NCBI RefSeq assembly: GCF_053078305.1
Contig: NZ_CP166879.1
Direction: 5' to 3' (one strand)
Length of the DNA: 64,000 bases
Part shown: piece after piece, positions 5,797 to 6,228 of the stretch
How positions within the stretch are numbered: position 1 is the first letter of the stretch
How the letters are laid out: each line of letters starts with the position of its first letter
The notes under the pieces: generated by a model
Database searches by the model: none
What the model was told of the DNA's origin: nothing
What the model saw: the letters and a program-made list of their open reading frames with translations, nothing else
Program-made: the position numbers and the translations under genes

Positions 5797-6228
5797 ATGA
5801 ATGAACATCACACTGTGGCAGCAACAGATGATTCAGGTCTTCAGATCAGTGGTGACAATTCTGTCACGGTGCTGGCAGAAGTGCGTTGCAGTCGTTCGGC
5901 GTTTCGTCGTGCGGGGTTCCTGTTCACGCGTGGACGTCAGCAGGTTGAGGTCACCCCGGAGCAGCTTGCCCGACTGGAGGCGGAGCCATGCCTCACTGTG
6001 CGAATACTACAGACGTCTGCTGATGATGCGGGGAGCGTGGCGGGTGTGGTTCATGCAGTGGCCTGTACAGATTTAGCCGAAGCCGAAGCCGAAGCCGAAG
6101 CCGAAGCCGAAGCCGAAGCCGAAGCCGAAGCCGAAGCCGAAGCCGAAGCCGAAGCCGAAGCCGGACAGGATGCTCCCCGGAAAAAGACCGGTAACAAAGC
6201 GAAACAGGCGAAAAAGGCCCGCGCATGA
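5797..6228 (+). CDS. Mu gp35-position small protein with internal (Ala-Glu)14 tract and basic C-tail
   Basis: 143-aa ORF with SD GGAGGG; contains the in-frame hexanucleotide repeat. Confidence 0.6.
   Translation: MNEHHTVAATDDSGLQISGDNSVTVLAEVRCSRSAFRRAGFLFTRGRQQVEVTPEQLARLEAEPCLTVRILQTSADDAGSVAGVVHAVACTDLAEAEAEAEAEAEAEAEAEAEAEAEAEAEAGQDAPRKKTGNKAKQAKKARA
6076..6159. repeat. Perfect hexanucleotide microsatellite (GCCGAA)x14 inside a CDS
   Basis: Fourteen uninterrupted GCCGAA units counted directly, followed by a degenerate GCCGGA. Confidence 0.95.

What the first reader, a model, noticed from the sequence alone, without database searches (positions are those of the whole stretch)
6076..6159. 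Perfect (GCCGAA)14 microsatellite inside a head-region gene, encoding an (Ala-Glu)14 linker
Fourteen uninterrupted hexamer units are unusual for enterobacterial coding DNA and prone to slipped-strand expansion or contraction. Because the unit is 6 nt, changes keep the frame and would vary linker length in a Mu gp35-position protein with a basic C-terminal tail.
Basis: seen in the sequence. Interest (0 to 1): 0.5.

Follow-up and report, generated by a model that had tools for sequence, protein, structure and literature searches.

The report
Known EHEC typing repeat EHC-5
The fourteen-copy GCCGAA repeat is real and its copy number varies widely between E. coli strains, but it is the already published typing marker EHC-5, sitting in a Mu-like prophage gene where it only lengthens or shortens an Ala-Glu spacer.

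Summary
A perfect (GCCGAA)14 array lies at window 6076-6159, in frame in a 143-aa gene (5797-6228, + strand) of an Sp18-type Mu-like prophage of E. coli.

The gene product shares its N-terminal domain with phage Mu gp35 and Haemophilus HI1506. The repeat encodes (Ala-Glu)14 between that domain and a short Lys/Arg-rich tail.

Copy number varies strongly. Fourteen alleles read directly carry 1, 3, 8, 9, 10, 11, 13, 14, 16, 17, 18 or 20 units. A spread sample of 58 complete genomes holds 17 different lengths. Alleles with identical flanks still differ in copy number, and every allele read stays in frame.

It is not new. The published primers for the MLVA locus EHC-5, used in Japanese EHEC O157/O26/O111 surveillance, match window 6004-6026 and 6180-6202 and bracket the repeat exactly.

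The likely mechanism is replication slippage in a length-tolerant, low-complexity spacer. It is not an on/off switch. The function of the protein is still unknown: Mu gp35 was not resolved in the 2025 cryo-EM structure of Mu.

Novelty: already known. Interest: low.

The parts
6076..6159 (+). Perfect (GCCGAA)14 tandem repeat. This is the variable core of the MLVA locus EHC-5 and encodes (Ala-Glu)14, residues 94-121.
   Evidence: The primers bracket it.
6160..6165 (+). Degenerate terminal unit GCCGGA (Ala-Gly). In some alleles this unit has itself expanded to (Ala-Gly)2-4.
   Evidence: Expanded AG units are seen in P0037, P0045, P0047 and P0050.
5797..6228 (+). Gene for a 143-aa HI1506-related protein, a homologue of Mu gp35 (Sakai ECs_4975). 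A GGAGG ribosome-binding site lies upstream. The stop codon overlaps the start of the next gene (ATGA at 6225-6228).
5860..6015 (+). Conserved N-terminal FluMu_N domain, residues 22-73, made of beta strands plus one helix. It carries the RRAGF and TPEQLA motifs.
   Evidence: Pfam PF17891, 2OUT, AlphaFold pLDDT 87-92, alignment A1.
6166..6225 (+). Lys/Arg-rich C-terminal tail QDAPRKKTGNKAKQAKKARA. It takes the place of the three-helix C-domain found in Mu gp35 and HI1506.
   Evidence: AlphaFold gives no regular structure here.
6199..6218 (+). Imperfect 9-base direct repeat (GCGAAACAG/GCGAAAAAG) inside the tail. An indel polymorphism here gives the tail forms KAKQAKKARA and KAEQARA.
6004..6026 (+). 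Binding site of the EHC-5 forward primer ATACTACAGACGTCTGCTGATGA, with 0 mismatches.
6180..6202 (-). Binding site of the EHC-5 reverse primer CCGCTTTGTTACCGGTCTTTTTC, with 1 mismatch here and 0 in Sakai. The predicted amplicon in this window is 199 bp.
4806..5753 (+). Context: Mu-like major head subunit gene gpT, directly upstream.
6225..6644 (+). Context: gene for the gp36-type head-tail adaptor (annotated gp436 family), translationally coupled downstream.
   Evidence: (phrog_195).

Best explanation
The array is a hypervariable, in-frame coding microsatellite (VNTR), identical to the published MLVA locus EHC-5. It lies in the gp35-homologue gene of Sp18-type Mu-like prophages of E. coli and Shigella. 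Whole 6-base units are gained and lost, most probably by slipped-strand mispairing during replication; that step is inferred. This changes the length of an Ala-Glu low-complexity spacer between the conserved FluMu_N domain and a short basic tail, from about 1 to at least 20 dipeptides. Because the unit is 6 bases, the gene is never switched off. The spacer appears to tolerate almost any length, so the variation is most likely near-neutral mutational noise rather than a regulated device. The variation itself and the identity with EHC-5 are shown directly. The slippage mechanism and the tolerant-spacer role are inferences.
For: The perfect 14-unit array is shown. The published EHC-5 primers match at 6004-6026 (0 mismatches) and 6180-6202 (1 mismatch here, 0 in Sakai) and bracket the array. 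227 of 5426 complete E. coli genomes carry the locus. Alleles read base by base have 1, 1, 3, 8, 9, 10, 11, 13, 14, 14, 16, 17, 18 and 20 units, all made of whole GCCGAA units and all in frame. A spread sample of 58 genomes gives 17 distinct lengths, with a median of 9 and a Nei diversity of 0.94. Two flank haplotypes, each identical over about 400 bases, carry {9,14,16,17} and {3,8,10,13,14,18,20} units, so repeat changes far outpace point substitution. Cattle isolates 119 and 121 carry the prophage at the same chromosomal place, in genomes that differ by about 1.5 kb in size, and have 14 and 13 units. Published O157 data give EHC-5 alleles of 0 (locus absent), 2, 3, 5, 6, 7 and 10-14. The single-stranded repeat DNA forms no stable hairpin (z = +3.5 against shuffles), which fits simple slippage. 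In relatives, the region after the N-domain is always variable and of low complexity. The C-terminal module is either a three-helix domain (Mu gp35, Edwardsiella and others) or an Ala/Glu/Lys-rich tract with a basic end (P0084, P0093). AlphaFold is confident only for the N-domain.
Against: No mutation rate was measured here, and no read pileups or serial passages were available. Slippage as opposed to unequal recombination is therefore inferred. Near-neutrality is also inferred: net charge changes by about 19 units between the shortest and longest alleles, which could matter for a protein whose function is unknown. The same perfect repeat persists on backbones that differ by about 10% in the upstream 196 bases (L010 and L011). 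That could reflect selection to keep the tract, although continued slippage or recombination would explain it equally well.
Confidence: 0.85

Rival explanations
1. The repeat is an adaptive tuning locus. Its high mutability is selected because different spacer lengths, or different acidic charge next to the basic tail, change a property of the phage. Candidates are how the gp35-like protein engages DNA or the head-connector region, or whether a host defence recognises it.
For: The tract is kept as a perfect repeat on divergent backbones (L010 with 11 units). The acidic tract sits directly next to a basic tail, so its length changes net charge from about +7 to about -12. Relatives also keep a spacer between two modules. 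AlphaFold draws the tract as one long helix, which would make it a physical ruler, but pLDDT is only 51-61.
Against: The length distribution is broad and flat from 1 to 18 units with no preferred class. One-unit alleles are common (7 of 58), so the tract is dispensable. No phenotype is known. Mu gp35 is not resolved in the Mu virion structure and no role has been assigned to it (PMC11915804). Other O157 hexamer VNTRs mutate at comparable rates without any selected role being invoked (PMC3777172).
Confidence: 0.08
2. The repeat is a phase-variable on/off contingency switch of the kind seen in Haemophilus or Neisseria, which turns the gene or a downstream gene on and off.
For: It is a long perfect short-sequence repeat inside a coding region, which is the usual appearance of such switches.
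Against: The unit is 6 bases. All 14 alleles read are in frame with an intact ORF, and all are annotated as full-length CDS. The overlap with the start of the downstream gene is unchanged in every allele. The rare frameshifted database entries (P0048, P0055, P0071) have their shifts outside the repeat.
Confidence: 0.01
3. The copy-number differences are sequencing or assembly artefacts and not biological variation.
For: Short-read draft assemblies often break at this repeat. Many database proteins are partial and end in or just before the tract; for example P0104 (92 aa) is seen on 156 contigs.
Against: The differences are seen in finished complete genomes. Two separate assemblies of strain 97-3250 give the same matched length (H25 and H29). 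Independent PCR fragment sizing in surveillance laboratories sees the same kind of variation at EHC-5.
Confidence: 0.02

Closest known systems
MLVA locus EHC-5, from the Izumiya et al. 2010 scheme for EHEC O157/O26/O111. The primers are listed in PMC10062581, S5 Table.
   Same: It is the same locus. Both primers map onto the flanks of the array (window 6004-6026 and 6180-6202). The locus is absent from most strains and highly polymorphic where present.
   Different: Nothing differs at the DNA level. The papers I could read treat it as a typing marker and do not discuss the protein. I could not read Izumiya 2010 itself.
Other hexamer VNTRs of E. coli O157:H7 used in MLVA: O157-10, O157-3, O157-9, O157-17, O157-19, O157-25 and O157-37.
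   Same: They have 6-base units, change by whole units, and show insertions and deletions at about 1e-5 to 1e-3 per generation in serial passage, with longer alleles less stable (PMC3777172).
   Different: They are different loci. None of their primers match the window. O157-10 is present in EDL933 with 23 units. No mutation rate for EHC-5 was found.
Phage Mu gp35 and Haemophilus influenzae HI1506 (FluMu gp35, PDB 2OUT; Pfam FluMu_N PF17891).
   Same: The N-terminal domain is homologous. The gene position is the same, between the major head gene and the gp36 adaptor gene. The layout is also the same: N-domain, then a flexible spacer, then a C-terminal module. The unstructured linker of about 30 residues in HI1506 is from my recollection of the 2OUT paper; I did not read that paper here.
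   Different: The three-helix C-domain of Mu gp35 and HI1506 is missing. It is replaced by (Ala-Glu)n plus a basic tail of about 20 residues. Mu, HI1506 and the other relatives aligned here have no microsatellite in the spacer.
Bacillus subtilis YqbF (PDB 2HJQ), a prophage protein.
   Same: There is a weak fold match to the N-domain: Foldseek E 1.3, probability 0.66, rmsd 2.6 over 53 columns. From my own knowledge, not tested here, yqbF also follows the major capsid gene and has a small C-terminal helical domain.
   Different: The match is not significant and there is no sequence similarity. It is a lead only.
Phase-variable simple-sequence contingency loci of Haemophilus and Neisseria.
   Same: They rely on the same slipped-strand mutability of a perfect short repeat inside a gene.
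   Different: Those repeats shift the reading frame or change promoter spacing to switch expression. This one cannot, because the unit is 6 bases and every allele is in frame.

Membership tests
Coding VNTR / microsatellite (MLVA-type locus) | Head-to-tail perfect copies of a short unit | tested here: met
   14 exact GCCGAA units, TRF score 178, 100% matches.
Coding VNTR / microsatellite (MLVA-type locus) | Copy number polymorphic among strains, changing by whole units | tested here: met
   1 to 20 units in 14 sequences read. 17 lengths in 58 genomes, all differing by multiples of 6.
Coding VNTR / microsatellite (MLVA-type locus) | Repeat changes faster than the flanking sequence | tested here: met
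   Flanks identical over about 400 bases carry {9,14,16,17} and {3,8,10,13,14,18,20} units.
Coding VNTR / microsatellite (MLVA-type locus) | Measured mutation rate per generation, or heterogeneity within one culture | not testable with these tools
   No reads or passage data were available. Rates exist only for other O157 loci.
MLVA locus EHC-5 | Both published primers bind in the correct orientation on either side of the array | tested here: met
   Forward primer at 6004-6026 (+) with 0 mismatches. Reverse primer at 6180-6202 (-) with 1 mismatch, and 0 mismatches in Sakai.
MLVA locus EHC-5 | Often absent, variable where present | tested here: met
   Present in 227 of 5426 complete genomes. 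Published null allele frequency in O157 clades is 31-100%.
Mu gp35 / HI1506 (FluMu gp35) family | N-terminal FluMu_N domain | tested here: met
   PF17891 E 5e-9, Mu gp35 BLASTP E 3e-12, 2OUT by sequence E 1e-4 and by fold E 9e-4.
Mu gp35 / HI1506 (FluMu gp35) family | Gene located between the major head gene and the gp36 adaptor gene of a Mu-like late operon | tested here: met
Mu gp35 / HI1506 (FluMu gp35) family | C-terminal three-helix domain | tested here: not met
   The alignment shows the domain in Mu, Edwardsiella and six other relatives, but not here, where (AE)n plus a basic tail takes its place.
Phase-variable contingency locus | Unit changes alter the reading frame or promoter spacing so that expression switches | tested here: not met
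   The unit is 6 bases and 14 of 14 alleles are in frame with intact ORFs.
Capsid decoration / cement protein | Ordered density on the capsid surface of the virion | not testable with these tools
   For Mu itself, the 2025 cryo-EM study reports no cement proteins and could not resolve gp35 (PMC11915804). Nothing is known for Sp18-type particles.

The most novel reading that the evidence does not exclude
The Ala-Glu tract may be a selected, mutable ruler or charge dial. By changing the length and negative charge of the spacer next to the basic tail, the prophage population would continuously diversify how the gp35-like protein engages DNA or the head-connector region, or whether a host defence sensor detects it. 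That would give a structural-module protein a built-in diversity generator that never inactivates the gene.
Probability: 0.06. Interest if true: 0.5.

Novelty: already known. Interest (0 to 1): 0.15.

Why it matters
The practical value is already being used: EHC-5 helps discriminate EHEC isolates in outbreak surveillance. This work adds three modest points.

1. The marker is a coding repeat in the Mu gp35 homologue of a mobile, transposing prophage. That explains its frequent null alleles, and it predicts multiple alleles in strains that carry several prophage copies.

2. The repeat varies an acidic spacer in a protein whose usual C-terminal domain has been replaced by a basic tail.

3. The repeat breaks many short-read assemblies.

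If linker length turned out to affect the phage, the natural allele series from 1 to 20 units would be a ready-made tool for studying gp35, which is still unassigned in Mu. Nothing here suggests that it does.

Tried and rejected
1. Literature searches for HI1506, ECs4975, Sp18 with MLVA, and VNTR with Mu-like found nothing useful. A search for the motif GCCGAA returned only coincidental primer matches.

2. I first suspected the hypervariable locus O157-10. I rejected it because it is present in EDL933 with 23 units and its primers do not match the window.

3. Vogler 2006 (PMC1482962) and Lindstedt 2003 (PMC317353) are not held in the library. Izumiya 2010 could not be read, so the identity with EHC-5 rests on the primer sequences reprinted in PMC10062581.

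4. NCBIfam gave no model for the protein. PHROGs gave only families of unknown function.

5. Fold searches against PDB and BFVD gave only 2OUT as a significant match, and no capsid, decoration or connector protein.

6. A phmmer scan of 1.84 billion representative proteins with the N-domain gave only 21 hits and no functional clue.

7. Folding the repeat as single-stranded DNA showed no hairpin, so there is no structure-driven instability.

8. I could not compare the several prophage copies that some genomes hold (up to 4 places per genome), because only the best place per record is listed.

Full report
**1. What is in the sequence**

Window 6076-6159 is GCCGAA repeated exactly 14 times, followed by one degenerate unit GCCGGA. 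Tandem Repeats Finder gives period 6, 14.8 copies, 100% matches and score 178. The next best array in the 64 kb window scores 57. Chance cannot produce this: the probability is about 1e-47 per site.

The array lies in frame in ORF 5797-6228 (+, 143 aa). It has a GGAGG ribosome-binding site upstream, and its stop codon overlaps the start of the next gene (ATGA at 6225-6228). The array is read as (Ala-Glu)14 at residues 94-121, then Ala-Gly, then the basic tail QDAPRKKTGNKAKQAKKARA.

**2. Context**

The surrounding genes are the late operon of an Sp18-type Mu-like prophage of E. coli:
- protease/scaffold gene, 3682-4806
- major head gene gpT, 4806-5753
- this gene, 5797-6228
- gp36-type adaptor gene, 6225-6644
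- a DUF1834 gene, 6641-7201
- tail sheath gene, 7444-8946

This is based. The Sakai counterpart of the gene is ECs_4975.

**3. The protein**

- *Homology.* Pfam finds FluMu_N (PF17891, E 5e-9) at residues 36-72. The only solved relative is HI1506 (FluMu gp35, PDB 2OUT), by sequence at E 1e-4 and by fold at E 9e-4. Mu gp35, in the same gene position, aligns over the N-domain at E 3e-12.
- *Architecture in relatives.* Mu gp35, an Edwardsiella homologue and most distant relatives have the N-domain, a variable low-complexity spacer and a C-terminal three-helix domain. The Sp18 type lacks that domain and has (Ala-Glu)n plus a basic tail instead. A few other relatives also end in Ala/Glu/Lys-rich tracts with a basic end.
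- *Predicted structure.* AlphaFold is confident only for residues 22-73 (pLDDT 87-92). It draws the repeat as a helix at low confidence (pLDDT 51-61) and leaves the tail unstructured.
- *Function.* No functional fold match was found. The 2025 cryo-EM study of Mu found no cement proteins on the capsid and could not resolve gp35, which it lists as a probable structural, perhaps connector-related, protein (PMC11915804). The function remains unknown.

**4. Copy-number variation**

- *Distribution.* The locus is present in 227 of 5426 complete E. coli genomes, at many different chromosomal positions and in up to 4 places per genome. It also occurs inside Stx-converting prophages.
- *Alleles read directly.* I read 14 alleles base by base. 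They carry 14 (window), 8 (Sakai), 20, 17, 1, 9, 14, 13, 10, 3, 11, 1, 16 and 18 units. All are whole GCCGAA units and all are in frame.
- *Lengths from the tables.* Matched lengths in a spread sample of 58 genomes give 17 different lengths from 1 to 18 units, with a median of 9 and a diversity of 0.94.
- *Rate relative to flanks.* Two flank haplotypes, each identical over about 400 bases, carry {9,14,16,17} and {3,8,10,13,14,18,20} units. Cattle isolates 119 and 121 carry the prophage at the same chromosomal place and differ by one unit.
- *Other variants.* Some alleles have interruptions (AG, VE, SE, AK), and some have expanded the terminal GCCGGA unit. A separate 9-base indel in the tail explains length differences that are multiples of 3 but not of 6.
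- *DNA structure.* The single-stranded repeat does not fold.

**5. It is a known locus**

A table of MLVA primers in PMC10062581 (S5 Table) lists these primers for EHC-5:
- forward, ATACTACAGACGTCTGCTGATGA
- reverse, CCGCTTTGTTACCGGTCTTTTTC

The forward primer matches window 6004-6026 exactly. The reverse primer matches 6180-6202 on the minus strand with one mismatch, and matches Sakai exactly. The predicted amplicon in this window is 199 bp. None of the other 17 primer pairs in that table, including O157-10, match the window.

EHC-5 belongs to the Izumiya et al. 2010 scheme that Japanese public institutes use for EHEC O157, O26 and O111. Published O157 data show it absent in 31-100% of isolates depending on clade, and otherwise carrying 2 to 14 repeats. 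That fits a VNTR carried on a variably present, transposing prophage.

**6. Mechanism and rivals**

The best explanation is slipped-strand gain and loss of 6-base units in a length-tolerant acidic spacer. The variation and the locus identity are shown. Slippage and near-neutrality are inferred, by analogy with other O157 hexamer VNTRs that mutate at 1e-5 to 1e-3 per generation (PMC3777172).

- An on/off switch is excluded by the 6-base unit and the intact ORFs.
- An artefact is excluded by finished genomes and by independent PCR sizing. However, the repeat does break many short-read assemblies: many proteins in the databases are partial and end at the tract.
- Adaptive tuning of spacer length or charge cannot be excluded. 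It is disfavoured by the flat length distribution and by the frequent one-unit alleles.

**7. Verdict**

The protein-level reading, an Ala-Glu spacer in a Mu gp35 homologue that has swapped its C-domain for a basic tail, is a small addition. Interest is low.

Noticed in passing
window 24279/24280 (Mu-like right end) and 24280 to about 38000: Homology to Sakai Sp18 ends at window 24279, within a few bases of the annotated right end of Sp18. Homology to Stx-converting lambdoid phages begins at that same base. Downstream are lambda-type tail genes: tape measure 26400-29012, tail protein L 29338-30036 and TipJ 31559-35077. The Mu-like prophage therefore appears to be inserted inside a lambdoid prophage, as in records LC727895 and LC727881.
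   Followed up: partly
window 6199-6218: An imperfect 9-base direct repeat lies in the basic tail. Alleles differ by a 9-base indel plus substitutions, giving the tail forms KAKQAKKARA and KAEQARA. This is a second, smaller length polymorphism in the same gene.
   Followed up: partly
protein database entries P0056, P0058, P0060, P0063, P0068 and P0104-P0117: Very many draft-genome proteins of this family are partial and stop in or just before the repeat. P0104 alone is seen on 156 contigs. Short-read assemblies evidently break at EHC-5, so long alleles are probably under-represented in draft data.
   Followed up: partly
P0037, P0045, P0047 and P0050 (alleles from other E. coli): In some alleles the degenerate terminal unit GCCGGA has itself expanded to (Ala-Gly)2-4. 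A second microsatellite has been seeded from a point-mutated unit of the first.
   Followed up: no
P0071 (E. coli, 484 kb contig): One database allele shifts frame upstream of the tract, reads the repeat as Pro-Lys units (KPKPKP), and returns to the normal frame for the tail. This is either a sequencing error or a compensated double frameshift.
   Followed up: no
window 5761-5782: An 8-bp G+C-rich stem-loop (GCCGGGCC ... GGCCCGGC) lies between the stop of the major head gene and the start of the gp35-like gene, with no U run after it. The fold energy is -22 kcal/mol, but z is only -1.5 against shuffles. It may stabilise the mRNA or attenuate expression.
   Followed up: partly
window 5797-6225: The exact 143-aa protein of this window is not in the 15-billion-protein collection. 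It has Ile at residue 17 where all 80 or so listed relatives have Val.
   Followed up: no
P0091, P0097 and P0100 (distant relatives): Some distant homologues carry two FluMu_N domains in tandem at the C-terminus of longer proteins. The domain is therefore a reusable module.
   Followed up: no
window 35559-37292: The ORF after the lambdoid TipJ gene matches collagen-like (Gly-X-Y) adhesin models over residues of about 100-225. It is likely a side tail fibre with a collagen-like repeat.
   Followed up: no
window 53051-53111: A 21-base tandem array of 2.9 copies with 68% matches (TRF score 57) lies in the chromosomal part of the window. I did not examine it.
   Followed up: no
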